DNA from: Candidatus Limnocylindria bacterium
GTDB lineage: Bacteria; Chloroflexota; Limnocylindria; P2-11E
DNA: 28,884 bases
NCBI GenBank assembly: GCA_036375335.1
Contig: DASUSA010000101.1
Location: 1-28,884, forward strand
Direction: 5' to 3'
Positions 1 through 17,228 of this stretch are shown piece after piece; position 1 is the stretch's first letter; each line of letters starts with the position of its first letter. The notes beneath the pieces are model-generated. The model saw only the letters and a list, made by a program, of their open reading frames with translations. It ran no database searches and was not told the origin of the DNA. The translations under genes and the position numbers were made by a program.

Positions 1-393
1 CTCGCCGAGGGCTCGTGGGGCAAGAACAACGACCATTCGACTTGGATCGCGCCCCAGACGAACTGGATGTGGGATGGGATCCGCAGCGCCGCATCGAAGG
101 TCCGCGCCCTCGCGGACGACCCGCCACGCGACGCGCTGCGCAAGCGGGCCGCCGACCACGCGCTCCGCGAGCTGCTGCTGCTCGAGTCGAGCGACTGGCC
201 GGTCCTCGTCACCACGGGCCAGGCCGGCGACTACGCCACCGAGCGCTTCCGCTCGCACGCCCAGCGTCTGCAGCGCTCGCTCGAGATCGCGGCGCACGGC
301 ACCGGCCAGGATGAGGTCGAGCTGCGCAGCCTCGAGCGGGCGGACAACCCGTTCCCCGGCGCGCGGATCGAGGACTTCGCGGAGATCAGCTAG
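1..393 (+). CDS. GH57 1,4-alpha-glucan branching enzyme (DUF1957-type), C-terminal part, 5'-truncated by the window
   Basis: Frame open from base 1: EGSWGKNNDHSTW...RELLLLESSDWPVLVTTG...YATERF...DNPFP, the typical C-terminal motifs of GH57 branching enzymes. Stop TAG 391-393. Confidence 0.85.
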   Translation, partial: LAEGSWGKNNDHSTWIAPQTNWMWDGIRSAASKVRALADDPPRDALRKRAADHALRELLLLESSDWPVLVTTGQAGDYATERFRSHAQRLQRSLEIAAHGTGQDEVELRSLERADNPFPGARIEDFAEIS

Positions 394-1120
394 CCGCGCA
401 CAGCGCGTCGAACCCGCTCGTCCAGGTGGCGCGCAGATCCGGGCCGATCGCGTAGGCCTCGTAGCCCTGCAGATCCTCGAGATAGTCGATCGCGCGCGCG
501 CCCATCGCGAACGCCGCGGTCGCCTGCACGTCGGCCTCGACGATGCTCGGTCCGACCACCGTCAGGCTCACGAGCTCGTCCGCTGGCGCGCCGGTGTGCG
601 GGTCGTAGATGTGGCCGCCCTTCTCGTACGTGCCGGATGTCGCGACCGCGAGATCGCCACCGAGCACGACCCGAACGACCGATCCGCGCTCGACCGGATG
701 GCGGATCCCGATGCGCCACGGCTCGCCGGCGTCGCTTTCGCCCCGGGTCCGAACGTCGCCGCCGGCATCGACGAAGTAGGCGCGATGCCCATGAGCATCC
801 AGGATCGCGCACGCGCGCTCGATCGCCCAGCCCTTCACGTAGCCCGACGGATCCAGCACCGCGCCACGCCACGCGCTGAAGAACCCGCCCGTCGCAGTTT
901 CGTGCCGCTCGCACCGCGCGAGCACGTCCTGCACCTCGGCGCTCGCGTCGTCGACCCGCAGGCGCCCGTCGTTGATTCGGGACACGGCGCTGTCCGGCGC
1001 GAACGGGCTGAATATCGCGTCGATGCGCCGGAGTTCGGCGAACGCCTCATCGGTGCCACGGTCGCCGTCGCGCACGTCGATGGTGATGGGCATGCCCATG
1101 ATCTCGTCGGTCCGGCGCAT
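386..1120 (-). CDS. apbE: FAD:protein FMN transferase (flavinyl transferase), no visible signal peptide
   Basis: IMGM N-terminal strand, DPSGYVKGWA, DAGGD, WRIGIRHP, AVATSG.YE.G.HI.DP and ADV.ATAAFAMG motifs. Adjacent to an FMN-binding protein gene. Confidence 0.92.
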   Translation of the reverse strand: MRRTDEIMGMPITIDVRDGDRGTDEAFAELRRIDAIFSPFAPDSAVSRINDGRLRVDDASAEVQDVLARCERHETATGGFFSAWRGAVLDPSGYVKGWAIERACAILDAHGHRAYFVDAGGDVRTRGESDAGEPWRIGIRHPVERGSVVRVVLGGDLAVATSGTYEKGGHIYDPHTGAPADELVSLTVVGPSIVEADVQATAAFAMGARAIDYLEDLQGYEAYAIGPDLRATWTSGFDALCAAS

Positions 1121-1122
1121 CG

Positions 1123-1596
1123 CTACTGGCCCGCCTGCTTCAGCGCGCTCGCGAGGGACTGGGCGTACGCGCGGCTCGTGTACGTCGCACCCGACACGAC
1201 ATCCACGCGGGCGGACTGCGCCTGGATCGCCTCGGAGCGGAGGATCGGCGCCGAGTACTGGCTGATGCGGGCCGATCGCGAACGGTCACTCGGCAGCTGA
1301 AGGGCCTGGACGTCGAGGATCTTGCCCCCTGACAACGCGATCTGGACCTGCACCGGCCCGAACAACGTCTCGACCGTCGGTCCCGTGAACGCCGTGCCGC
1401 CGCTCACGCCCCCGGTCGTGGCTGGAGTCGTCGTGCGGGCGGTCGGCTGCGGCGTGCGCTGCCCGGGTGCCGTCGTGACCCGCGGCGAGGGCACGGTCAC
1501 GACCGGGACGTCGATCGGCTCGGCCGTGACCTTAAACGTCACGAGCCAGTACACGCCGATGACGGTGGCCGCGAAGGCCGTGAGCGCGCGTCTCAT
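1123..1596 (-). CDS. Membrane-anchored/exported FMN-binding protein (flavinylation substrate)
   Basis: N-terminal hydrophobic segment, Pro/Thr-rich linker, FGPVQVQI, and DVVSGATYTS matching the (S/T)GA(S/T) flavinylation motif. TGATG overlap with the upstream gene. Confidence 0.9.
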   Translation of the reverse strand: MRRALTAFAATVIGVYWLVTFKVTAEPIDVPVVTVPSPRVTTAPGQRTPQPTARTTTPATTGGVSGGTAFTGPTVETLFGPVQVQIALSGGKILDVQALQLPSDRSRSARISQYSAPILRSEAIQAQSARVDVVSGATYTSRAYAQSLASALKQAGQ

Positions 1597-2963
1597 CAGA
1601 AGTCGAACGCCTCGGTGTGGATCCGGTCGGCCGCCATGCCGAGCGACCGGAGGGTATGGACCAGCTGCCGCGTCATGCCAAGCGGACCGCAGATGAACAC
1701 GTCGCGCTCGATCACGTCCGGCACCAGTTTGACCAGGTTCGCCTGCTGGAACCAGTCGGCGTGGATCCAGCCCTGCGGCCCGCGGTTGCTGATCAGGTAT
1801 TCGACCCGGACGCCGAAGCGCGATTCGAGCGAGTCGAACTCGCCGCGGAACGCGATGTCGCGCTGGCGGCGGCAGCGATAGAGGACGCAGACGTCCACTC
1901 CATCCCGCGCCAGCGACTCCGCGAGCGGCCGGATCGGCGCGATCCCGATGCCTCCGCCGACGAGCAGCGCCTTCGTGCTCCGGCAGGCCTCGCGTGTGAA
2001 CAGGCCGAACGGTCCCTCGACGATCACCGGTGTGCCCTGACGGAGCTGCGGAAGGGCGGCCGTGAAGTCGCCGATGCTCTTGGTGGTGAAGCGCAGGTGC
2101 CGGGCGCCGGGGCCGGATGAGAGCGAGAACGGATGCGCCTCGAACCAGCGCGTGCCGTCGAGGAACCGCCAGAGGAAGAACTGTCCCGCCTCGAACGGCA
2201 ATGCGGCGACGTCACGACCCGATACGTAGATCGAGATCGCCTCGTGCGCCTCGCGCTCGACACGTTCGACGCGGAACCGGTGCCGGTCGTATCGCATCAG
2301 CGGTCGCGCTACCCGGTAGTACACCAGCGCGACGGCGACGACGACGTACAGCGCCCACCAGTACGCGACCGAGAGCGGCGCGCGGATGAAGTCGACCCCG
2401 ACAGTCAGCTCGTGCGCGAACGCGAGCGCGATCGCAACGTACGAGTAGAGGTGGATGAAGTACCAGGTCTGGTACGACAGCCGCCGCCGTGCGGTGGACA
2501 TCGAGAGCCCGGCCACGGCGATCAATAGGAGTAGCGCGGCGATCGCCGGCACGAGGCCGTCGTAGTGGTCGATGAAGTCGCCCAGCTGCTGGAGGATGCC
2601 GTAGCCGTTGTCCATCGCGTAGGCGATCGTCTGCGCGACCGCGTGCGCCACGAGCAGCCACAGGATCAGGAACCCATTGCGGCGATGGAGGACGACCAGG
2701 CCCTCCATCCCGAACGCAGCGTCGAGCCACGGGATCCGCGCCATGAGCAGAAGCTCCCACAGCACGAGGTAGGTGCCGATGAGAGCGGTCACCCGACCGA
2801 TGACGTTGAGCGCATCGGCGCCCGTCTTCACGCCGTCGTGGCCGCTGCCGACCCACCAGAGGAGAAGGATGGCGGCCAGGTTCGCGTTGAAGACCGCCCA
2901 GAGAATGTCTCGGCCCGCTTGACCCGCGAAACGGCGCGCCGATACCGCGGTGGGCTGCTCCAC
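1596..2963 (-). CDS. Ferric-reductase-like transmembrane (di-heme b) + FAD/NAD(P)H-binding oxidoreductase
   Basis: Four TM His (LHRRNG, AHAVAQ, IHLYSY, AHELT), HPFSLSS, EGPFG, GGGIGIAP, CGP and terminal EAFDF. Start placed at GTG 2963 (GTG 2972 is an alternative). The ORF-track extension to 3350 overlaps rplY. Confidence 0.9.
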   Translation of the reverse strand: MEQPTAVSARRFAGQAGRDILWAVFNANLAAILLLWWVGSGHDGVKTGADALNVIGRVTALIGTYLVLWELLLMARIPWLDAAFGMEGLVVLHRRNGFLILWLLVAHAVAQTIAYAMDNGYGILQQLGDFIDHYDGLVPAIAALLLLIAVAGLSMSTARRRLSYQTWYFIHLYSYVAIALAFAHELTVGVDFIRAPLSVAYWWALYVVVAVALVYYRVARPLMRYDRHRFRVERVEREAHEAISIYVSGRDVAALPFEAGQFFLWRFLDGTRWFEAHPFSLSSGPGARHLRFTTKSIGDFTAALPQLRQGTPVIVEGPFGLFTREACRSTKALLVGGGIGIAPIRPLAESLARDGVDVCVLYRCRRQRDIAFRGEFDSLESRFGVRVEYLISNRGPQGWIHADWFQQANLVKLVPDVIERDVFICGPLGMTRQLVHTLRSLGMAADRIHTEAFDF

Positions 2964-2972
2964 TGCCGGCAC

Positions 2973-3000
2973 TACCCGGCCCGGAGCTGCCTCGTTTCGG
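2973..3000 (-). promoter_or_regulatory. Putative ECF-sigma promoter (CGAAAC-N17-GGTA), copy 1
   Basis: Minus strand CCGAAACgaGGCAGCtccGGgCCGGGTA, immediately after the rplY stop and 9 nt before GTG 2963. Near-identical to 17183-17210. Confidence 0.7.
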
Positions 3001-3783
3001 CTAGCCCTTCTTGCCCTTCGGGGCGGCCGCGGCCTTGGCCGCAGGCGCCGCTCCCTTGGCCGCGGGCGCGGCGCCCTTGGCGGCGGGAGCACCGGCGGCG
3101 GGCGCGCCGCCCGCGGCGGGCGCGGCGCCTGCCGCTGCCGGTGCGGAACCTTCGGCCGCCGGCTCGCCCTCGACAGCCTCGCCTTCGACAACGGCGGCCG
3201 GCTTCTCGACGACTTCCTCGGCGCGCGGCGCGACGGCCTTCGCCACGACCTGCTCGCCGTCATTGAGAATCTCGATCTTCGAGGCGTCGACGACGAGGTC
3301 GCGCACGTACAGGGTGTCCTCGATCTGCTCGATCTTCGCGAGGTCGACATCGATCTGGTGCGGGATGTCCTGCGGGAACGCCTCGATGCGTACCTCGCTC
3401 AGCGCGTGGACCATGACGCCGCCGTGGGTGCGAACGGCGGGGGACTCGCCGGTGAAGTGCAGCGGCACGATCGCGTGCGTCTTCTCGGTGAGCGAGACGC
3501 GCGCGAAGTCCACGTGCAGGAGTGAGCCACTCTTCGGCTCGCGCGAGACGTCGTGCACGAGCACCGCGACGTCGCCGCCATCAAGCCCGGTCAGCGACAG
3601 GAGCGTGGTCTGGCCCCAGCGGCGGTAGCCCTTCTGGAAGACGCTGGTGTCCGTCTCGACCGGCGTCGAATCCGCGTGGCCGCCGAAGATCACGGCGGGC
3701 AGGCGCCCTTCGCGGCGCAGCGCGCCGACCTTCTTGCCGAGCACGGTGCGCGGCCGGACCTCGAGCTTCGGTGCATCAGCCAA
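3001..3783 (-). CDS. rplY: 50S ribosomal protein L25/Ctc (long form)
   Basis: GKKVGALRREGRLPAVIFGG, LLHVDF, VPLHFTGESPAV and P.DIP..I.VD motifs. TTG start preceded by AGGGGAG. Confidence 0.95.
   Translation of the reverse strand: MADAPKLEVRPRTVLGKKVGALRREGRLPAVIFGGHADSTPVETDTSVFQKGYRRWGQTTLLSLTGLDGGDVAVLVHDVSREPKSGSLLHVDFARVSLTEKTHAIVPLHFTGESPAVRTHGGVMVHALSEVRIEAFPQDIPHQIDVDLAKIEQIEDTLYVRDLVVDASKIEILNDGEQVVAKAVAPRAEEVVEKPAAVVEGEAVEGEPAAEGSAPAAAGAAPAAGGAPAAGAPAAKGAAPAAKGAAPAAKAAAAPKGKKG
3004..3140 (-). repeat. Low-complexity Ala/Pro/Gly/Lys tandem repeats encoding the L25 C-terminal tail
   Basis: Translation AAAGAAPAAGGAPAAGAPAAKGAAPAAKGAAPAAKAAAAPKGKKG, with imperfect 6-7 aa (18-21 nt) units. 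Confidence 0.7.
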
Positions 3784-3827
3784 GTGGATTCGCTCCCCTG
3801 ATCGCGGTCTTGAGAGACTCGATTATC

Positions 3828-4487
3828 TCAGGGCGGGGTCGGGAGGTCCACCACGAGCCGGACAGGGCTCGCCAGCTGGCTCACCTTGGCGCAGGCCAGC
3901 CGTTCGAGGCCGAGGCCCCATGAGGTGACTCGCTCGAAGTCGTCGATGAGCTTCACCTCACGCACGAGTGGGAGACCCGGCCGGAGGTCGGTTTGGGTGA
4001 ACGTCTGCGTTCCGGTTGTCGGGTCGACGGTCGAGGCGTTGCTCAGGCGTAGCGAGAGGAACGCATTGCCGTCGACGGGCACCTGGCGTCCGCTTGTACC
4101 AACGAACTGGGTCGCGACCGCGAGCGACCAGGGCGGAAGCCCGTACGTTCCGACCGTCGAAGGGCCGAACTCGAAGACCACCCGGTCGAATCCCGGGTTG
4201 TGCGCAGCCCGGACCGCCGTGATCTGGGCCTGGAATGCCGCGCTCCCGCCACTCTGTGCGGGGCACGCCACCGGTGTGGCGCCCGGAGACGGGCTCGGGC
4301 CGACGGTGGCGGTCGGGCTAGGCGAGGGCGCGGGCGGAGGCGTCGTCGGCGACGCCACGGTCCGAGTCGGCGTCGGCGGGGCGGTCGTGAGCGCCGCGGA
4401 CGTCGTGGGCGGGGTCAGCGTGACAGGCGTGCAGGCGGCTCCGGCGATGAGGGCGGCTGCACACAACAGAAGAAAGCGGCCATTCAT
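3828..4487 (-). CDS. Lipoprotein with Pro/Thr/Ser linker and AMIN-like domain
   Basis: Signal MNGRFLLLCAAALIAGAAC (lipobox-like Cys), PT-rich linker, then AVRAAHNPGFDRVVFEF...DFERVTSWGLGL...RLVVDL, resembling actinobacterial AMIN-like domains. Confidence 0.7.
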   Translation of the reverse strand: MNGRFLLLCAAALIAGAACTPVTLTPPTTSAALTTAPPTPTRTVASPTTPPPAPSPSPTATVGPSPSPGATPVACPAQSGGSAAFQAQITAVRAAHNPGFDRVVFEFGPSTVGTYGLPPWSLAVATQFVGTSGRQVPVDGNAFLSLRLSNASTVDPTTGTQTFTQTDLRPGLPLVREVKLIDDFERVTSWGLGLERLACAKVSQLASPVRLVVDLPTPP

Positions 4488-10883: not shown

Positions 10884-11441
10884 CTACCGGCTCGGGCTTG
10901 GCCTCGGGCTCCCGCTCGCGCCGGCGCCGCGGCCACCCGGGAACCCGGCGCCACCCAGGATGTCACCGAGAATGTTCGTCGCGCCGACGACGATGGTCTG
11001 TGCGGAGATCGTCCCGCTGGTCGCGTCCGGCGTGCCGGCGATGGTGATCTGGTCGCCGACCTTGAGGTCGCTGAGCTTCACGTCAGACTCGACCGTCTTG
11101 ACGACGCGCGTCCCGCTGCCGACGAGCACGAGCTCCGTCGTGGTCGTCGCGGTGGCACCGTTGGCCCCACCTGCGCGGACCGAGACCGTGACCGAATCGG
11201 TGTTCACCGAGAGGATCTGGCCGGTCGTGACGCCGCCGCCCGCACCTCGCGCGCCTGCCCCGCCGTTCGCGCCGCCACCACCGAAGTTGCCCCGGGCACC
11301 CGTCGCTCCGGTCCCACCACTCGTGGTCCCGACCGGCGTCGGGGTGCGGGTCGAGCCGAAGGCGTAACCGCCACCGAAGAGCGCCAGGGCCACGATGACC
11401 CCGACGACGATCTGGACCGGACGCCGTGCGAGGACACTCAT
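10884..11441 (-). CDS. Membrane-anchored Gly-rich protein with a small beta (OB/DUF5666-like) domain
   Basis: Single N-terminal TM, Gly-rich linker, GQILSV...VTV...TRVVK...SDLKVGDQITIAG...ISAQTIVV. Preceded by the SD GGGAGA. Last gene of the ABC operon. Confidence 0.65.
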   Translation of the reverse strand: MSVLARRPVQIVVGVIVALALFGGGYAFGSTRTPTPVGTTSGGTGATGARGNFGGGGANGGAGARGAGGGVTTGQILSVNTDSVTVSVRAGGANGATATTTTELVLVGSGTRVVKTVESDVKLSDLKVGDQITIAGTPDATSGTISAQTIVVGATNILGDILGGAGFPGGRGAGASGSPRPSPSR

Positions 11442-11456: not shown

Positions 11457-12743
11457 TCACTCATACCGAAGTGCCTGGATCGGATGCAGGCGCGCCGCCC
11501 GCATCGCGGGATAGAGGCCAAAGACGATGCCGATCGCGACTGACACGCCGACCGCGACTGCGACCGTGCCCGCCGTGATCGCGATGGGGATGTTCGCCGC
11601 CGCGGGGATCTGATGGACCACGACCGTGATGCCCCAGCCAAGGAGGATCCCGAGGATGCCGCCGATGCCAGTGAGTCCGATCGCTTCGATCAGGAACTGC
11701 ACGAGAATGTCGCGGCGTCGCGCGCCGACGGCCTTGCGGATGCCGATCTCCCGCGTCCGCTCGTTCACCGAGACCAGCATGATGTTCATGATCCCGATGC
11801 CACCGACGAGGAGCGAGATCCCGCCGATCGCGGCGAGCAGGATCGTGAACGTCCCGGTGACCTGGTTCAGCGCGGCGAGTGTGTCGTTCTGGTTCGTGAC
11901 CGTGAAGTCCGCGGACGCCGGGTCGGTGATCTTGTGACGCTGCAGGAGCACGTCGGTCACGTCGGCGGTCGTGTTGGCCATCTGATCGCTGCTCGCTGCC
12001 TTCACGATGATCGAGCTCACCGAGTTCGTCCGGCCGGTGAGGACGCGCTGCGCGGTCGTCGTTGGAACGAGGATCTGGTCATCGCGCGAGAAGCCGAACG
12101 TGGTGCCCTTCGTGTCGAGCATCCCGACGACCTTGAAGTTCACGATCCGGGCTCGCGACGCCCCCCCGCCGGGCCCGCCGCCGCCGAAGGCCTGCCGCAG
12201 CTGGATCGTTTGCCCGGTCGGATCGACGCCGTCACCGAAGAGGTTCGCAGCGGTCACCGAGCCGATCACCGCGACCTGGGCGTTCACGCTCACGTCGTCG
12301 TCGGTGAAGAAGCTTCCCGTCGCGAGCGCCCAATCGCGGACCTCCGGGTAGCCCGTGGTCACGCCGACCACGTTCGAGTTCCAGTTCTGACCGGCGGCGG
12401 TCACCTGCCAGCGGCCGGCGCCCTGCTCCGCTTCGACGGCGCCGATGGTCGGCCCGAGCTGGGCCAGGATCGCGTTCATGTCGTCGAGTGTGAGGTTCAT
12501 GCTCTGCGCGCCGGCGCCGCGGAGACCGGTATCGCTGCTCTGGTTTCCCGGCGTCACGGTCACGAGATTCGAGCCGAGCGAGAGGACCTGCTGCTGCACC
12601 TGGATCGACGCGCCGTTGCCGACGGCGACCATCGCGATCACGGATGCCACGCCGATGATCACGCCGAGCATCGTGAGCGCAGACCGCAGCTTGTTCACGA
12701 TGATCGACTGGAGCGCGGAGCGGAACGAGTCGAAGAGCTTCAT
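11457..12743 (-). CDS. MacB/FtsX-family ABC transporter permease
   Basis: [60 protein letters not shown] and [19 protein letters not shown]. Confidence 0.95.
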
Positions 12744-13549
12744 CGTGCCCCGAGCGGCGCGGTCGCAATCGGCCCGGTGTGCAGGTCGACCGAATGGCCC
12801 TGCCCCGCGAGGCGCAGCTCGTCCTCCGCCCGGCGGGGCCGGGTCACCAGTTCGTCTCCAGAGACGACGCCGTCGCGCATCCGCACGATGCGCTTGCAGT
12901 GCTCGGCCACGTCCGGCTCGTGGGTCACCATGACCACGGTCTTGCCCTGGTCGTTGAGCCGCTGGAAGATCGCAAGGATCTCGGCGCTCGAGCGGGAGTC
13001 AAGATTTCCGGTCGGCTCGTCGGCGAGGATGATCGCCGGGTCGTTCAGCAGTGCGCGAGCGATCGCGACCCGCTGCTGTTGGCCACCGCTGAGCTCGCTC
13101 GGCTTGTGGTGCATCCGCTCCCCGAGGCCGACGGCCGCCAGCGCATCCTTTGCCCGCTGCGTCCGCCCGCGGGCGGTCCCGCCGTAGAGCAGCGGCAGCT
13201 CGACATTCTCGATCGCGTTGAGCCGCGGCAGCAGGTTGAAGGTCTGGAACACGAAGCCGATGTGCTTGTTGCGGATGGCCGCGAGCTGATCATCGTTGAG
13301 CTGGCGGACCTGCTCGCCGGCGAGCACGTAGGTGCCCGCTTCGGGAACGTCGAGGCAGCCGAGGATGTTCATCATCGTCGACTTGCCTGAGCCCGATGGT
13401 CCCATGAGCGCGACGAACTCGCCCGGGTAGACGTCGAGGTCGGCGCCCTGGAGCGCCTGAACGACGTTGTCCTTTCCCATGCGATATGTCTTGGTGACTC
13501 CGCGCAGCCGGATGACCGGATCGGCCGGCGCCGGCGCGTACGCGTTCAT
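12740..13549 (-). CDS. ABC transporter ATP-binding protein (MacB/LolD-like)
   Basis: GPSGSGKST Walker [16 protein letters not shown] signature, [11 protein letters not shown] Walker B and VTHE. Confidence 0.96.
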
Positions 13550-15390
13550 CGACCGGGCACTGGGTTGCCGCCGCCCCCGCCGAGCTGGATGCCGCGCCCG
13601 CCGCCGGCATTCGTCGCGGTCGCGCGGGGCTGCGGCAAGACGACGACGTCGCCCTCCTGCACGCCGGTGAGGACCTCAGTGACGGTGTCGTTGCTGATGC
13701 CGAAGGTCACGTCGGTGTCGACCTGCTGCCCGTCCTTCATGACCGTCAGGTAGCGCCTCCCACTCGCCGTCTTCACGGCGAGGTTCGGCACCGTGAGCGC
13801 GTTCGGGCTGCTCGCGATGATCACGTTCGCGGTGCCGCTCATGCCGGGCTTCACGGACTGGTTCGGCAGGTCGATCGTGACGTCGACGCCATAGACCGGA
13901 ACGCCGCCCGAGATCGTCGCGACGGGATCGAGCGAGGTGACCTTGCCAGTCATCTTCGCGGTCCCGATCGCGTCGACCGTGACGGTCGCGACCTCGCCGA
14001 GCTTGAGCTTCACGACGTCCGACTCGCCGATCGTGCCGTGGAGGGCCATCGAGCCGGTGTTCGCGATGACGATGAATCCGGTCGTGCTGGTGCTGCTGGC
14101 GGTCTCACCGACTTGGGCGCCGATCGTGGTGACCACGCCCGCGACGGTCGCCTTGATGACCGCGTTGTCGAGGTTCGTCTGGGCGGTCGCGACCGCGGTC
14201 TGGGCGTTGTTCAGCGAATTCTGGGCGCTCTGGACGTTCGACGGTTGGTTGTTCAACGACGTCTGGGCGCTCTGGAGGCTCTGGGCCGACCGGAGCTGGG
14301 CGGCGGCCACGTTCTGGACGGCGGTGAGGTAGCTGCCTGAGATCGCGTCGCTGATCGTCGTCACGGTCGTGCCGATCTGGGTGACCTTGTTCTTCGCGTT
14401 CGTCGCGCCCTGGTTCTCACCGGTGAGCGTCACGAGGAGTGCTGCGACATCGGCCCGCGCGGCATCGAGGGTCGTGTCGACCTTGGCGTTCAGGGTGTTG
14501 AGCGAGTTCTGGGCCGAGGTCGCTGACGACTGGGCGCTCGACAGCTGGCCGTTCGGGGCGTCGATCGCGCTGGTCAATCGAGACGTCGCACTGCTGTAGG
14601 CGACCTGGGCGGTCGACAGCTGCTGGCCCGCGGCGGTCAGGTCCGCGTTCGCCGCGACGGCCGCGTCGAACGCGCTCGTCGCATTGAGGATCTGATTGAC
14701 CGCGGCGATGTAGTCGGCCTCGCCGGCCTGGTAGACGCCGTTCACGTAGTTCTGGGCGTTTCCCAAAGTCGCACTGGCCTGGTACATCGCGGTCTGGGCG
14801 GACTTGTTGTCGCTGATCTGGTTCGCCTGGGCGAGGTCGCTCTGGGTCTTGGACACCTGCTGCTGCGCCACGCTGATCTGCGAGACATAGGTCGCGAGAT
14901 CGTTGATCAGCGAGCCATACAGGCTCGAGAAGTTGACCTTCGCCGCGGCATAGTTCGACTTCAGCTTGGCCAGCGCCGCCTGTGCGGTCGCGATGTCACT
15001 CGCCGTCGACTGCTGGGTCTGGCTGTACGAGTTCTGCGCGTCGCTCACGCCGGACAGGGCCTTGTTGTAGTTCGTCTGTGCCGCATCGAGGTTGTTCTGC
15101 GCGGTCGTGAGGGCGGCCTGAAGGTCGGTCGTGTCGAGCGCGGCGAGTGGCTGGCCGGCGGTGACCTGCTGGCCGACCGCGACCATGAGCTGCGCGACCT
15201 TCCCGTTCGTCGGGGGGTTGAGTTTCACGGTGCCGGCCGAGCTGACCGATCCGGACACCGCGACCGACTGGGTGACCGCCGCGCGCGTGACCTGCGCGGT
15301 CCGCGTTTCCGCGGCCGCGGGCGCGCCGCTGCACGCCGCGGCGAACACTCCCGCCACTGCGGCGGCGATGACGCTCTTTCCGATGGACAT
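13546..15390 (-). CDS. MacA/HlyD-family periplasmic adaptor, lipoprotein, with a very long helical insert
   Basis: MSIGKSVIAAAVAGVFAAAC lipobox, split lipoyl halves (GKVAQL.V.VGQQV.AGQPL and IKATVAGVV), and a beta-barrel ESDVVKLKLG...VKPGMSG.A.VI. Start at ATG 15390 after a purine-rich SD. Confidence 0.88.
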   Translation of the reverse strand: MSIGKSVIAAAVAGVFAAACSGAPAAAETRTAQVTRAAVTQSVAVSGSVSSAGTVKLNPPTNGKVAQLMVAVGQQVTAGQPLAALDTTDLQAALTTAQNNLDAAQTNYNKALSGVSDAQNSYSQTQQSTASDIATAQAALAKLKSNYAAAKVNFSSLYGSLINDLATYVSQISVAQQQVSKTQSDLAQANQISDNKSAQTAMYQASATLGNAQNYVNGVYQAGEADYIAAVNQILNATSAFDAAVAANADLTAAGQQLSTAQVAYSSATSRLTSAIDAPNGQLSSAQSSATSAQNSLNTLNAKVDTTLDAARADVAALLVTLTGENQGATNAKNKVTQIGTTVTTISDAISGSYLTAVQNVAAAQLRSAQSLQSAQTSLNNQPSNVQSAQNSLNNAQTAVATAQTNLDNAVIKATVAGVVTTIGAQVGETASSTSTTGFIVIANTGSMALHGTIGESDVVKLKLGEVATVTVDAIGTAKMTGKVTSLDPVATISGGVPVYGVDVTIDLPNQSVKPGMSGTANVIIASSPNALTVPNLAVKTASGRRYLTVMKDGQQVDTDVTFGISNDTVTEVLTGVQEGDVVVLPQPRATATNAGGGRGIQLGGGGGNPVPGR

Positions 15391-15421
15391 TGACCCTCTT
15401 CCCTTCTCCACGCGAAGCCCG

Positions 15422-16204
15422 TTAGCTGACGATCGACGCGGGTGCGGCACCGAGCCGTGCGACCACGACGGCACCGAGCGCGTACGCGACGACGGCAAAT
15501 GCGACGACGCCGCCCACTGCGGGCAGCTGCATGAGGACGTACAGGATCGTGGCGCCGATGAGCGCGACCAGCGGACCCGGGATGCCGCCCGCCCAGCGGT
15601 TCACCGCCCGCAGCCCGAACAGGGCGTCGCCCAGCCGCCACGACGCCGCCGCGAAGCCGACGAACGTGACCAGAAGCAGCGCGGCGACGAACACGGCCAG
15701 GGTCATGAGCCCGACCTGCAGTCCGAACTGGATCGCGGTCGGCGCTTCGCGGAATCCCGCCGCGAGCCCTCCGAGCAGCACGACCCCTCCGAGGAACGTG
15801 GCGGATGCAAGCAGGAGCAGCACCGCGACGCCGGTGCCGAGGACTCGCAGCTGGTCGCGCCAGGTGCCGCGCGCGGCGTGATACGCCCCGAGCACCTGCG
15901 TGCGTCCGAGCACGAGGACGGCCGCGACCCCGATCACCACGAGCAGGTACCCGGCCGCATCGCGGGCGGTGTCCGAGATGCCACGCTGGAACGGGACCAC
16001 CGCCCGAAGCGGGATCGGCACGTCACCTGCCGCCACGGCGGTGCGGACGGGGGCGGCGCGATTCCCGAAGTTCACGAAGAAGAAGGACCGCGACCGGCCG
16101 GTCTCGTCCGCCCCCGCGGCCATCGAGCCGACGAGGAGGACGGTGGCGATCGCGAGCGCGATCACGATCGCGCCGAGCGCGAAGACGGTGTCGCGTCCGC
16201 TCAT
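15422..16204 (-). CDS. Multi-pass membrane protein of unknown function
   Basis: N-terminal TM, a short polar segment, then about six hydrophobic helices. ATGA overlap with the anti-sigma gene. Confidence 0.75.
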   Translation of the reverse strand: MSGRDTVFALGAIVIALAIATVLLVGSMAAGADETGRSRSFFFVNFGNRAAPVRTAVAAGDVPIPLRAVVPFQRGISDTARDAAGYLLVVIGVAAVLVLGRTQVLGAYHAARGTWRDQLRVLGTGVAVLLLLASATFLGGVVLLGGLAAGFREAPTAIQFGLQVGLMTLAVFVAALLLVTFVGFAAASWRLGDALFGLRAVNRWAGGIPGPLVALIGATILYVLMQLPAVGGVVAFAVVAYALGAVVVARLGAAPASIVS

Positions 16205-16590
16205 CGAGCGATCATCCGGTGCTGCTCGGTCCCGCGGAGCATCGCGTGCGCGGCGACCGCGCTCCCGATGCCGAGGAACGCGAGCGAGATGATCAGGAGA
16301 CCGTCGATCGCGACGTCAGCGCCGGTGGTCTGATCGAGCCCCTGCGCGGCCACGAGGATCGCGCTGAACGACGCGCCGAGCTCGGCGCCATGGGCCACGA
16401 GCCCCCATCCGAGGTAGGCGAGGCTCGGCAGGGCCAGCACTGCGGCGAAGATCCATTCCCAGCCCGTCGCCGGGCCGTTGCTGCGAACGCGCGCCATCAC
16501 CCCGTCGCGAAAACCGATCGGGAGCGGGGCGGGCCTGGCCGCGCTGAGCAACCGGTCGATGTCGAGCTCGTCATTCTCCAGATCATTCAT
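16201..16590 (-). CDS. Putative membrane anti-sigma factor
   Basis: ATGA overlap with the ECF sigma stop. The short cytoplasmic N-terminus (DRLL...PLP.GFRDGVMARV) is typical of anti-sigma domains and is followed by two TM helices. No HxxxCxxC zinc motif. Confidence 0.7.
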   Translation of the reverse strand: MNDLENDELDIDRLLSAARPAPLPIGFRDGVMARVRSNGPATGWEWIFAAVLALPSLAYLGWGLVAHGAELGASFSAILVAAQGLDQTTGADVAIDGLLIISLAFLGIGSAVAAHAMLRGTEQHRMIAR

Positions 16591-17141
16591 GAGCGCTTGG
16601 CCCTCCGTTCGGCGAGCCTCGTCTTCAGCGCGGCACGCGCGCGATGCAGGTGCGTCTTCACGGTGCCGAGCGGGATCCCGAGCGCGTCGGCCACCTCTTG
16701 ATAGGAGAGCTGCTGCATGTGCCTCAGTGTGAGGGCCGCGCGGTACGCCGGCGGTAGCAACGCCATCGCGTCCAGCACCTCCTGGACGTCCTCCTTGCGG
16801 ACCGCCGAGAGCTCGGGTCCGGCTTCGAGCGGCTCGGGATCCTCGGGGAATTCTTCGACCGTGATCTCGCGGCCGCGGCCCCGCTGGATGAAATTCAAGC
16901 TGGCGTTCGTCGTGATCCGGAAGAGCCAGGGCCCGAACGGGTAGGCCGGGTCGTACTGGTGGAGAGCCCGGTACGCCCGGATGAACGCATCCTGGGCGCA
17001 ATCGCGCGCGGCGTCGGGGTCGTGCGTGATCCGGAGCGCGACGTTGTACACCCGACCTCCATAGCGTTCGACCAGCGCCTCATACGCGTCCGCGTCACCG
17101 GACAGGCACCGCTGCACGATCTCCTGGTCGGTCCGAGTCAG
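16587..17141 (-). CDS. ECF RNA polymerase sigma-70 factor (SigW-like), probable CTG start
   Basis: DQEIVQRCLSGD..AYEALVERY, DCAQDAFIRAY, FGPWLFRITTN, region 4 LSYQEVADALGIPLGTVKTHLHRAR. CTG 17141 has the SD GGGAGA 6 nt upstream. An in-frame stop lies at 17172-17174. Confidence 0.92.
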   Translation of the reverse strand: MTRTDQEIVQRCLSGDADAYEALVERYGGRVYNVALRITHDPDAARDCAQDAFIRAYRALHQYDPAYPFGPWLFRITTNASLNFIQRGRGREITVEEFPEDPEPLEAGPELSAVRKEDVQEVLDAMALLPPAYRAALTLRHMQQLSYQEVADALGIPLGTVKTHLHRARAALKTRLAERRAKRS

Positions 17142-17182
17142 CGTGGATCTCCCGGCCGGCAGCGGGTGCGGTCAACAATCCA

Positions 17183-17210
17183 TACCCGGACCTTCGCTGC
17201 CATGTTTCGG
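17183..17210 (-). promoter_or_regulatory. Putative autoregulatory ECF-sigma promoter (CGAAAC-N17-GGTA), copy 2
   Basis: Minus strand CCGAAACatGGCAGCgaaGGtCCGGGTA, about 40 nt upstream of the sigma gene. Resembles the B. subtilis sigma-W consensus TGAAAC-N16-CGTA. Confidence 0.72.
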
Positions 17211-17228
17211 CGTATTCTCAACTCCTCC

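What the first reader, a model, noticed from the sequence alone, without database searches (positions are those of the whole stretch)
2973..3000. Shared 28-nt ECF promoter links the flavinylation operon to the ECF sigma 14 kb away
Seen: minus-strand CCGAAACgaGGCAGCtccGGgCCGGGTA (3000->2973) aligns without gaps to CCGAAACatGGCAGCgaaGGtCCGGGTA (17210->17183), 22/28 identical. Both copies are intergenic, in sense orientation and directly upstream of an operon. The other GAAAC hits I checked in the window lack a GTA at this spacing. Known: ECF sigmas typically autoregulate from AAC/GTA-type promoters (B. subtilis sigma-W: TGAAAC-N16-CGTA). Inference: this sigma co-controls a MacAB-type envelope transporter and an extracytosolic redox module, an envelope/redox-stress regulon I do not recognise as described. 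Even the spacer (GGCAGC, CCGG) is conserved, suggesting extra recognition or promoter capture by duplication. Copy 1 would yield a leaderless mRNA starting near GTG 2963.
Basis: partly seen in the sequence, partly recalled or inferred. Interest (0 to 1): 0.85.

Follow-up and report, generated by a model that had tools for sequence, protein, structure and literature searches.

The report
Shared ECF sigma promoter, two operons
A stress-type (ECF) sigma factor in an uncultured soil Chloroflexota bacterium very probably switches on two operons through the same conserved promoter, its own efflux-pump operon and a membrane redox (flavinylation) operon 14 kb away; this is an ordinary kind of regulon with an unusual target.

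Summary
Minus-strand 3000->2973 and 17210->17183 match at 22 of 28 positions, and both are intergenic and in sense orientation. The core motif [C/G]CGAAAC-N16-GGGTA occurs only at these two places in the 1.86-Mb assembly.

Comparative genomics turns this from a marginal similarity into a well-supported promoter.
- The motif lies upstream of every readable ortholog of the ECF sigma (63-98% identical), in two overlapping sets: 29/29 and 34/34.
- It also precedes all 9 orthologous MsrQ-like reductase/FMN_bind/ApbE operons.
- The spacers diverge freely.
- In the redox operon the A of GTA always lies exactly 9 nt before the GTG/ATG start and there is no Shine-Dalgarno. GAAAC then sits at -35..-31 and GTA at -12..-10 of a leaderless mRNA starting at 2963.
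- The genome carries a strong leaderless signature overall.

The sigma/anti-sigma/membrane protein/MacA-like/ABC/MacB-like/small-protein operon keeps its gene order in all seven loci checked, from six further genera in two families. The redox operon plus its promoter is an accessory cassette found in 9 of 23 genus genomes. In another genus the same motif precedes a cell-wall amidase.

The shared spacer bases are clade-specific and not required. No start-site or expression data exist. This is a new member of a known kind, a local SigW-like ECF regulon.

The parts
2973..3000 (-). ECF-type promoter of the redox operon. The -35 GAAAC is at 2998->2994, the 16-nt spacer at 2993->2978, and the -10 GGGTA at 2977->2973.
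   Evidence: The motif is conserved in all 9 orthologous operons with diverged spacers.
2961..2963 (-). GTG start codon of the reductase and predicted transcription start (leaderless), 9 nt after the A of GGGTA.
   Evidence: The 9-nt distance is invariant in 9 orthologs. The start is ATG in one lineage. There is no Shine-Dalgarno. The genome carries a leaderless signature.
1596..2963 (-). MsrQ-like di-heme membrane reductase with a C-terminal FAD/NAD-binding module.
   Evidence: Pfam Ferric_reduct PF01794 and NAD_binding_1 PF00175.
1123..1596 (-). Membrane-anchored FMN_bind protein carrying an SGAT flavinylation motif. Its start overlaps the reductase stop.
   Evidence: Pfam PF04205. Translation. 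Overlap seen.
386..1120 (-). ApbE flavin transferase, the last gene of the redox operon.
   Evidence: Pfam PF02424, E 5e-46.
17183..17210 (-). Autoregulatory ECF promoter. The -35 GAAAC is at 17208->17204 and the -10 GGGTA at 17187->17183. The predicted start is near G 17173.
   Evidence: The motif is present in 29/29 and 34/34 orthologous upstream regions and in a second family.
16587..17141 (-). ECF sigma factor. The probable start is CTG 17141, preceded by GGGAGA. The first canonical start is GTG 17117.
   Evidence: Pfam Sigma70_r2 and r4_2. NCBIfam best hits are SigW and SigE, both below cut-off. Third-codon variation upstream of the GTG in orthologs shows that stretch is coding.
16201..16590 (-). 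129-aa membrane protein, the probable anti-sigma factor.
   Evidence: Its start overlaps the sigma stop. Translation shows a short cytoplasmic N-terminus followed by TM helices. The complex model scored 0.77 against a best control of 0.01. There is no Pfam hit.
15422..16204 (-). 260-aa polytopic membrane protein of unknown family.
   Evidence: Translation. No Pfam hit. Conserved in the operon in the seven loci checked, from two families.
13546..15498 (-). MacA/HlyD-like adaptor. Its start is uncertain, because the TTG at 15498 overlaps the previous gene.
   Evidence: Pfam HlyD_D23 and HlyD_3. NCBIfam RND_mfp and MacA.
12740..13549 (-). ABC ATPase.
   Evidence: Pfam ABC_tran.
11457..12743 (-). 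MacB-type permease.
   Evidence: Pfam MacB_PCD and FtsX.
10884..11441 (-). 185-aa Gly-rich anchored protein, the last gene of the sigma operon.
   Evidence: Translation. Found in six of the seven loci checked.
3001..3783 (-). rplY (L25/Ctc), the gene directly upstream of copy 1. It has its own sigma-70-like promoter at 3850->3822.
   Evidence: Pfam. Promoter scan found no terminator after rplY.

Best explanation
Both 28-nt elements are promoters read by the ECF sigma factor encoded at 17141-16587.

How it would work (inferred):
- The sigma is held at the membrane by the 129-aa anti-sigma encoded next to it.
- On an unknown envelope signal it is released.
- It then transcribes its own seven-gene operon (sigma, anti-sigma, membrane protein, MacA-like adaptor, ABC ATPase, MacB-like permease, small anchored protein) from a start near 17173. 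That mRNA has a 32-nt leader.
- It also transcribes the MsrQ-like reductase/FMN_bind/ApbE operon from G 2963 as a leaderless mRNA.

Shown here: the motif, its placement, its conservation, the operon gene order, and the fixed promoter-to-start-codon geometry.
Inferred: that this sigma rather than a paralog reads copy 1, the exact start sites, the signal, and the physiological role. The likely role is envelope defence or repair that combines export with extracytosolic electron transfer.
For: 1. Conservation upstream of the sigma.
- GAAAC and GTA at fixed N18 spacing lie upstream of the sigma in 29/29 relatives.
- The same holds in 34/34 species representatives at 63-98% identity and in a second family.
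- The spacer and the leader vary (information content table).
- Homologs at 36-47% identity have no such motif among the 38 long enough to read.

2. Conservation before the redox operon.
- All 9 rplY-linked reductase operons (72-94% identity) keep [C/G]CGAAAC-N16-(G/C)G(G/A)TA.
- Four lineages have unrelated spacers and different insertions after the rplY stop.

3. Specificity in relatives.
- In 24 genus genomes CGAAAC-N16-GGGTA has 26 matches: 19 before sigma genes, 6 before the reductase, and 1 inside an ORF.
- The reversed control pattern gives 18 hits.
- In 81 family genomes the count is 71 matches against 23 control hits.

4. None of 12 other ECF paralogs whose upstream DNA is on the contig carries the motif; a 13th is cut off at a contig end.

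5. Leaderless geometry.
- Nine nt separate the A of GTA from GTG/ATG in all 9 operons. This places GAAAC at -35..-31 and GTA at -12..-10.
- In this genome TANNNT ends 6-7 nt before start codons in 100 and 93 cases, against roughly 5-10 at other offsets.

6. The motif resembles B. subtilis sigma-W promoters, TGAAAC and CGTA (PMC5758882). SigW is the top NCBIfam hit, though below cut-off.

7. The sigma and the N-terminus of the neighbouring membrane protein are modelled as a complex. The score is 0.77 against a best control of 0.01. That mark was reached by 51 of 78 solved complexes and 2 of 108 mismatched pairs.

8. Local ECF sigmas with three or fewer promoters, and leaderless ECF targets, are established patterns (PMC7776599).
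Against: - There is no start-site, expression or binding data. RNA runs hold only relatives' contigs, with no read ends.
- The assembly is 83% complete, so a paralogous ECF with the same specificity could be missing.
- There is no terminator between rplY and the operon, and one RNA contig from a relative crosses the junction. Read-through therefore contributes some transcript.
- In 3 of the 34 representatives (L136, L138, L137; also L011 in the relatives set) the leader is deleted, so that an ATG overlaps the -10 or a TTG lies 7 nt after it. This does not fit the simple start-site model.
- The exact motif is not enriched in this one genome against shuffles, 2 versus 3.4.
Confidence: 0.78

Rival explanations
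1. Copy 1 is a real ECF-type promoter but is read by a different ECF sigma of the same cell, one with overlapping specificity. The two operons would then not be co-regulated.
For: The genome has at least 13 further ECF paralogs and is only 83% complete. Overlapping recognition among ECF sigmas is known in B. subtilis (PMC5758882). The base pair just after GAAAC differs systematically: GA at the reductase sites and AC/AT at the sigma sites.
Against: None of the 12 other ECF genes with readable upstream DNA has this motif upstream. Both core elements and the spacing are identical in the two classes of site. Every genome holding the reductase cassette also holds this sigma.
Confidence: 0.1
2. The redox operon is expressed mainly by read-through from the rplY promoter. 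The conserved motif contributes little, or serves another purpose such as a protein-binding site or an RNA element at the rplY 3' end.
For: There is no intrinsic terminator after rplY. An RNA contig from a relative spans rplY to 2955. The local RNA fold has a z-score of -2.2.
Against: The folded hairpin is not conserved in other lineages (sequences). What is conserved is exactly a -35/-10 pair at ECF spacing, identical to the sigma's own promoter. The 9-nt distance to a start codon without a Shine-Dalgarno is hard to explain other than by a leaderless start. RNA depth on the operon is far lower than on rplY in the runs laid, but the organisms are mixed.
Confidence: 0.08
3. The similarity is chance, or a relic of a duplication, and has no present function.
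For: A single 22/28 match in a 69% GC genome is only marginally significant. The bare motif is not enriched against shuffles. Spacer identity of 10/16 in this genome could be a duplication relic.
Against: The core elements are retained in all 9 operons and in every readable sigma ortholog while surrounding bases randomise. In relatives the motif is almost absent anywhere else.
Confidence: 0.04

Closest known systems
Bacillus subtilis sigma-W regulon, including its autoregulated sigW-rsiW operon and the YknWXYZ four-component exporter
   Same: - The promoter is bipartite, with -35 (T)GAAAC and a -10 ending in GTA (PMC5758882).
- The anti-sigma is membrane-bound.
- The target is a membrane protein + HlyD-like adaptor + ABC ATPase + FtsX/MacB permease set in the same gene order. 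YknWXYZ is cited in PMC6818787, reference 53.
- SigW is the best NCBIfam hit.
   Different: - The sigma scores far below the SigW equivalog cut-off, 125.8 against 209 bits. It belongs to Chloroflexota, not Firmicutes.
- The transporter genes here are in the same operon as the sigma.
- The 260-aa membrane protein has no detectable Yip1/YknW family match.
- The -10 reads GGGTA rather than CGTA and lies one base further from AAC.
- No flavinylation operon came up as a sigma-W target in the papers consulted here.
Local ECF sigma regulons predicted by phylogenetic footprinting (Todor et al. 2020, PMC7776599)
   Same: The logic is the same: find the autoregulatory promoter, then find conserved matches upstream of orthologous genes. 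The regulon is small (three promoters or fewer), close to the sigma gene, and patchy in distribution. That paper reports leaderless ECF targets in Actinobacteria.
   Different: I could not check whether that data set covers the lineage here, Ca. Limnocylindria, which these tools returned only as metagenome-assembled genomes. The paired targets here, a MacAB-like pump plus an MsrQ-like flavinylation operon, are not named in the parts of the paper I read.
MsrQ-like flavinylation gene clusters (Meheust et al. 2021, PMC8238504)
   Same: The gene content matches: a PF01794 membrane protein with a C-terminal PF00175 NAD-binding domain, an FMN_bind protein and ApbE. The paper describes 1797 such clusters, mostly in Actinobacteria, of unknown function.
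   Different: That paper gives no regulation for these clusters; the word sigma does not occur in it. Here the cluster is in Chloroflexota, sits directly after rplY, and carries an ECF promoter with a leaderless start.

Membership tests
ECF sigma-dependent promoter | Bipartite motif with an AAC-containing -35 and a G-T-containing -10, separated by about 16-17 nt | tested here: met
   GAAAC-N16-GGGTA at both sites.
ECF sigma-dependent promoter | One copy directly upstream of the ECF sigma gene (autoregulation) | tested here: met
   Copy 2 ends 41 nt before CTG 17141. The same arrangement is found in every readable ortholog.
ECF sigma-dependent promoter | Core elements conserved across orthologous upstream regions while the spacer and flanks diverge | tested here: met
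   The information content table shows GAAAC and TA invariant in 35 distinct sites.
ECF sigma-dependent promoter | Transcription start 6-10 nt after the -10 that depends on the sigma | not testable with these tools
   No RNA reads with ends were available.
SigW (NCBIfam equivalog NF007223 / TIGR02948) | Score above the curated equivalog cut-off | tested here: not met
   125.8 bits against a cut-off of 209, and 114.1 against 243.1. It works like SigW but is not a member at equivalog level.
Leaderless mRNA | Start codon at a fixed distance from the -10 element, so that the start site falls on the start codon, with no Shine-Dalgarno | tested here: met
   Exactly 9 nt from the A of GTA to GTG/ATG in 9 operons, with no conserved GGAGG-like element.
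Leaderless mRNA | The organism uses leaderless initiation | tested here: met
   TANNNT ends 6-7 nt before ATG/GTG of high-GC3 ORFs in 100 and 93 cases, against about 5-10 at other offsets. This is indirect, sequence-based evidence.
Leaderless mRNA | Mapped 5' end at the start codon | not testable with these tools
   No suitable RNA data.
MsrQ-like flavinylation system (PMC8238504) | A PF01794 protein in a cluster with an FMN_bind protein and ApbE | tested here: met
   One search found PF01794 + PF00175, PF04205 and PF02424 in three consecutive genes, two overlapping by a base and two 2 nt apart. An SGAT motif is present in the FMN_bind protein.
MacAB / YknWXYZ-type tripartite or four-component ABC exporter | MacB_PCD + FtsX permease, a separate ABC ATPase, and a HlyD-family adaptor | tested here: met
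   Gene order is conserved in the seven loci checked, from two families.
MacAB / YknWXYZ-type tripartite or four-component ABC exporter | A YknW-like (Yip1 family) fourth component | tested here: not met
   The 260-aa membrane protein has no Pfam or NCBIfam match.
Class I anti-sigma factor | An N-terminal helical domain that binds sigma regions 2 and 4, and a recognisable anti-sigma domain | tested here: inconclusive
   The complex model scored 0.77 against a best control of 0.01, with contacts to sigma residues 17-58 and 114-173. There is no Pfam hit, and only a 16.7-bit NCBIfam anti-sigma hit against a cut-off of 100.

The most novel reading that the evidence does not exclude
The promoter may act as a translational gate. 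The redox operon sits directly behind a ribosomal-protein gene with no terminator, and its first gene has no Shine-Dalgarno. Read-through RNA from rplY would therefore be poorly translated. Only the ECF-directed start at the first base of GTG 2963 would create a translatable, leaderless mRNA. Envelope stress would thus control both transcription and translatability of an extracytosolic flavin-based electron conduit. This would also mark the widespread MsrQ-like flavinylation systems, whose function is unknown, as envelope stress or repair modules.
Probability: 0.2. Interest if true: 0.6.

Novelty: new member of a known kind. Interest (0 to 1): 0.42.

Why it matters
The function of MsrQ-like flavinylation clusters is unknown (PMC8238504). 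A conserved promoter shared with an envelope-type ECF sigma and a MacAB-like exporter gives a testable hint that they serve envelope defence or repair rather than housekeeping respiration.

The finding also gives a first, simple regulatory circuit for Ca. Limnocylindria, a soil Chloroflexota class that these tools returned only as metagenome-assembled genomes. The circuit has a sigma, an anti-sigma, two promoters and a clear leaderless geometry, and it can be rebuilt and tested in a heterologous host.

The same sigma has picked up different envelope targets in different genera: a redox operon here and a cell-wall amidase in another genus. This illustrates regulon turnover around a fixed core operon.

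Tried and rejected
- RNA evidence. No RNA run was listed for an 8-kb query. A second search found soil metatranscriptomes holding 5-10% of the words. Laying four of them gave only assembled contigs from relatives, with no read ends and no places where molecules begin. Nothing can be said about start sites. One contig crosses from rplY to 2955.\n- ECF group assignment. The re-classification paper's main text gave no match for a MacB/FtsX context or for this motif. The nearest solved structures are AlgU, SigE, SigW and RpoE, all at similar scores. No group number can be assigned.\n- Spacer-based extra recognition. Rejected, because the spacers are unrelated in other lineages.\n- Conserved RNA hairpin or terminator at copy 1. 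The fold z-score is -2.2 in this genome, but the pairing is not conserved, and no terminator was found.\n- More regulon members in this genome. The PWM scan found none. The third-best hit, C61:1971, has GGCTA and lies inside an ORF. C17:1840 and C51:2801, which match the looser GAAAC-N17-GGTA, were not followed up.\n- Isolated motif hits in relatives were judged chance or were left unresolved. G021:C53 lies inside a lipoprotein signal peptide. G104, G026, G093, G099 and G076 have no suitable downstream gene.\n- Earlier scan notes by keyword: none found.

Full report
**What is there**

The window is contig C101 of a 1.86-Mb, 357-contig assembly that is 69% GC and 83% complete. Record titles of near-identical contigs place it in Chloroflexota, Candidatus Limnocylindria, from soil metagenomes.

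Read on the minus strand, 3000->2973 and 17210->17183 match at 22 of 28 positions without gaps.

- Copy 1 fills the 37-nt gap between the rplY stop and GTG 2963. That GTG starts an MsrQ-like reductase (Ferric_reduct + NAD_binding_1). An FMN_bind protein and ApbE follow, the FMN_bind start overlapping the reductase stop and ApbE starting 2 nt after the FMN_bind stop.
- Copy 2 lies between an ECF sigma gene and a divergent MBL-fold gene that starts at ATG 17229.

**Is it more than chance?**

Within this genome the case is only moderate.

- Copy 1 is the best non-self match to copy 2 in the assembly, at 22 identities. The next best has 20.
- GAAAC-N16-GGGTA occurs only at these two places, but shuffles give 3.4 occurrences on average.
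- Only these two of the 15 GAAAC pentamers in the window have GTA after 18 nt.

The decisive evidence comes from relatives.

*Sigma promoter.*
- Orthologs of the sigma were found in about 30 genomes of the same family at 68-98% identity. All 29 with readable upstream DNA carry GAAAC, 16 variable bases, then NN(G/A/T)TA, mostly GGGTA.
- A second, overlapping set of 34 species representatives at 63-98% identity gave 34 of 34.
- Two genomes of a second family have it too.
- In 35 distinct sites G, A, A, A, C, T and A are invariant, while spacer columns carry 0.1-0.6 bits.
- Among homologs at 36-47% identity from other phyla, none of the 38 loci long enough to read has the motif.

*Redox operon.*
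- The reductase has rplY-linked orthologs in 9 of 23 genus genomes at 72-94% identity.
- All nine carry [C/G]CGAAAC-N16-(G/C)G(G/A)TA.
- In four lineages (L036, L037, L038, L053) the spacer is unrelated to that of this genome, and extra bases have been inserted between the rplY stop and the motif. The core elements and their distance to the start codon are unchanged.
- In genomes without the operon, rplY is followed directly by a convergent glgB-like gene and there is no motif remnant. Promoter and three genes therefore behave as one presence/absence cassette.

*Specificity.*
- In 24 genus genomes CGAAAC-N16-GGGTA has 26 matches. Nineteen are before sigma genes (one a partial second copy), six are before the reductase, and one is inside a lipoprotein ORF. 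The reversed control pattern gives 18 matches.
- In 81 family genomes the pattern has 71 matches against 23 for the control.
- None of 12 other ECF paralogs in this genome whose upstream DNA is on the contig has the motif; a 13th sits at a contig end.
- A PWM scan of the genome finds no third credible site.

**Geometry and mechanism**

In every reductase operon exactly 9 nt separate the A of GTA from the start codon, which is GTG, or ATG in L037. No Shine-Dalgarno-like element is conserved. If transcription starts at the first base of the start codon, GAAAC occupies -35..-31 and GTA occupies -12..-10. From my own recollection of solved ECF promoter complexes, that is where they place these elements; I did not check this here.

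Leaderless initiation appears common in this organism. A TANNNT hexamer ends 6 or 7 nt before the ATG/GTG of high-GC3 ORFs in 100 and 93 cases, against about 5-10 at most other offsets.

For the sigma promoter the same rule predicts a start near G 17173. That gives a 32-nt leader with GGGAGA placed 6 nt before CTG 17141. Third-codon variation in orthologs shows that the stretch between CTG and the first GTG is coding. Other genera have GTG, TTG or ATG at that position.

The next gene encodes a 129-aa protein with a short N-terminus and TM helices. Its first 70 residues are modelled against sigma regions 2 and 4 with a score of 0.77 and a best control of 0.01. That mark was reached by 51 of 78 solved complexes and 2 of 108 mismatched pairs. 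The model supports binding but does not show it.

The seven-gene operon and the divergent MBL-fold gene were then sought in seven loci, from five further genera of this family and two genomes of a second family. All seven keep the divergent gene and the first six operon genes in the same order. The seventh gene was found in six of them.

**Best reading**

This is a local, SigW-like ECF sigma whose core regulon is its own MacAB/YknWXYZ-like exporter operon. In part of this genus it has also taken on the MsrQ-like flavinylation operon, through a leaderless ECF promoter.

In another genus of the family the same motif recurs upstream of an Amidase_3 lipoprotein (six genomes). Single sites precede a BNR lipoprotein and a secreted DUF2680-like protein. 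The accessory targets are all envelope proteins, which fits an envelope-directed response.

**What is not supported**

Spacer identity between the two promoters is 10/16 here, about 0.003 for a random 16-mer. It is 6-8/16 in the closest relatives and 0-7/16 in the others. The spacer is therefore not under shared constraint. An old duplication can be neither shown nor excluded.

**Limits**

- No start site, expression or binding data exist. The RNA runs found hold only assembled contigs of relatives.
- There is no terminator after rplY, which has its own sigma-70-like promoter at 3850->3822. Read-through is therefore likely to add some transcript.
- The assembly is incomplete, so a paralogous sigma with the same specificity cannot be excluded.
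- In 3 of the 34 representative sigma orthologs, and in one more of the relatives set (L011), the leader is deleted. An ATG then overlaps the -10, or a TTG lies 7 nt after it. The simple model does not explain this.

**Unpublished genomes**

G006, G010 and G097 are flagged as unpublished.
- G006 supplies one of the nine reductase sites (L036; the same stretch is held again as L096) and one sigma site (L005/L058).
- G010 supplies one sigma site (L014/L059) and one rplY junction (L094).
- G097 supplies one of the six amidase sites (L195).

Every conclusion stands without them.

**Comparison with known systems and novelty**

The promoter resembles sigma-W promoters, TGAAAC and CGTA (PMC5758882). 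The transporter resembles the sigma-W-controlled YknWXYZ exporter (cited in PMC6818787). The sigma is far below the SigW equivalog cut-off, and the fourth transporter component has no YknW-like match.

Predicting small, local ECF regulons from autoregulatory promoters is an established approach, and leaderless ECF targets are known (PMC7776599). The redox operon fits the MsrQ-like flavinylation clusters of PMC8238504, for which that paper reports no regulation. A search for papers joining ECF sigma with ApbE or FMN-binding listed none among the 15 shown.

This is a new member of a known kind. Its interest lies in the functional hint it gives for MsrQ-like flavinylation systems, and in being a clean, testable circuit from a lineage known here only from metagenomes.

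Noticed in passing
window 17141-17117 and orthologs L001-L030, L111-L144: The ECF sigma appears to start at CTG 17141, with GGGAGA 6 nt upstream. In orthologs only third-codon positions vary between this CTG and the first GTG. Other genera have GTG, TTG or ATG at the equivalent position.
   Followed up: partly
whole genome G000: There is a strong leaderless-gene signature. TANNNT ends 6-7 nt before ATG/GTG of high-GC3 ORFs in 100 and 93 cases, and 8-9 nt before in 37 and 62 cases. The background is about 5-10 per offset.
   Followed up: partly
L136, L138, L137, L011 (sigma orthologs in other genomes): The roughly 40-nt leader is deleted. An ATG then overlaps the TA of the -10, or a TTG lies 7 nt after it. 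This does not fit a start about 10 nt after the -10. L136 has no alternative start codon nearby.
   Followed up: partly
L191-L196 (genus g8 of the same family): A second conserved GCGAAAC-N16-GGGTA site lies in a divergent intergenic region. It is followed by a conserved leader of about 80 nt in most loci and a lipoprotein of roughly 315 aa with an Amidase_3 domain. This is probably another target of the orthologous sigma.
   Followed up: partly
window 17211-17228; + strand: GAGAATACG just upstream of the sigma -35 is conserved across the family. On the + strand it reads TATTCT, 10 nt before ATG 17229 of the divergent MBL-fold gene. It may be the -10 of a divergent promoter back to back with the ECF -35.
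   Followed up: no
L039, L054 (G007): Two MsrQ-like paralogs at 55% identity lie directly after the C-terminus of a histidine kinase and lack the ECF motif. In that genome the module may be under two-component control.
   Followed up: no
window 386-3000 and L088-L110: The promoter plus the reductase/FMN_bind/ApbE genes is a presence/absence cassette between rplY and a convergent glgB-like gene. It was found in 9 of 23 genus genomes. Close relatives differ: G012 has it, while the G002 contig breaks off 93 nt after rplY, already inside the convergent gene.
   Followed up: partly
window 3822-3850, minus strand: A sigma-70-like promoter for rplY: TGGACC, a 17-nt spacer, then GATAAT preceded by TG. 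GGGGAG follows before TTG 3783. No terminator was found between rplY and the redox operon.
   Followed up: no
window 2955-3484: A 511-nt contig from a soil metatranscriptome (run X16) is about 92% alike and therefore from a relative. It runs from inside rplY across the promoter to 8 nt past the reductase start. This is compatible with read-through, or with DNA in the library.
   Followed up: no
G000 contigs C17:1840 and C51:2801: Two further matches to the looser GAAAC-N17-GGTA. The C51 site is followed by GGAGG-like bases. Their context was not examined.
   Followed up: no
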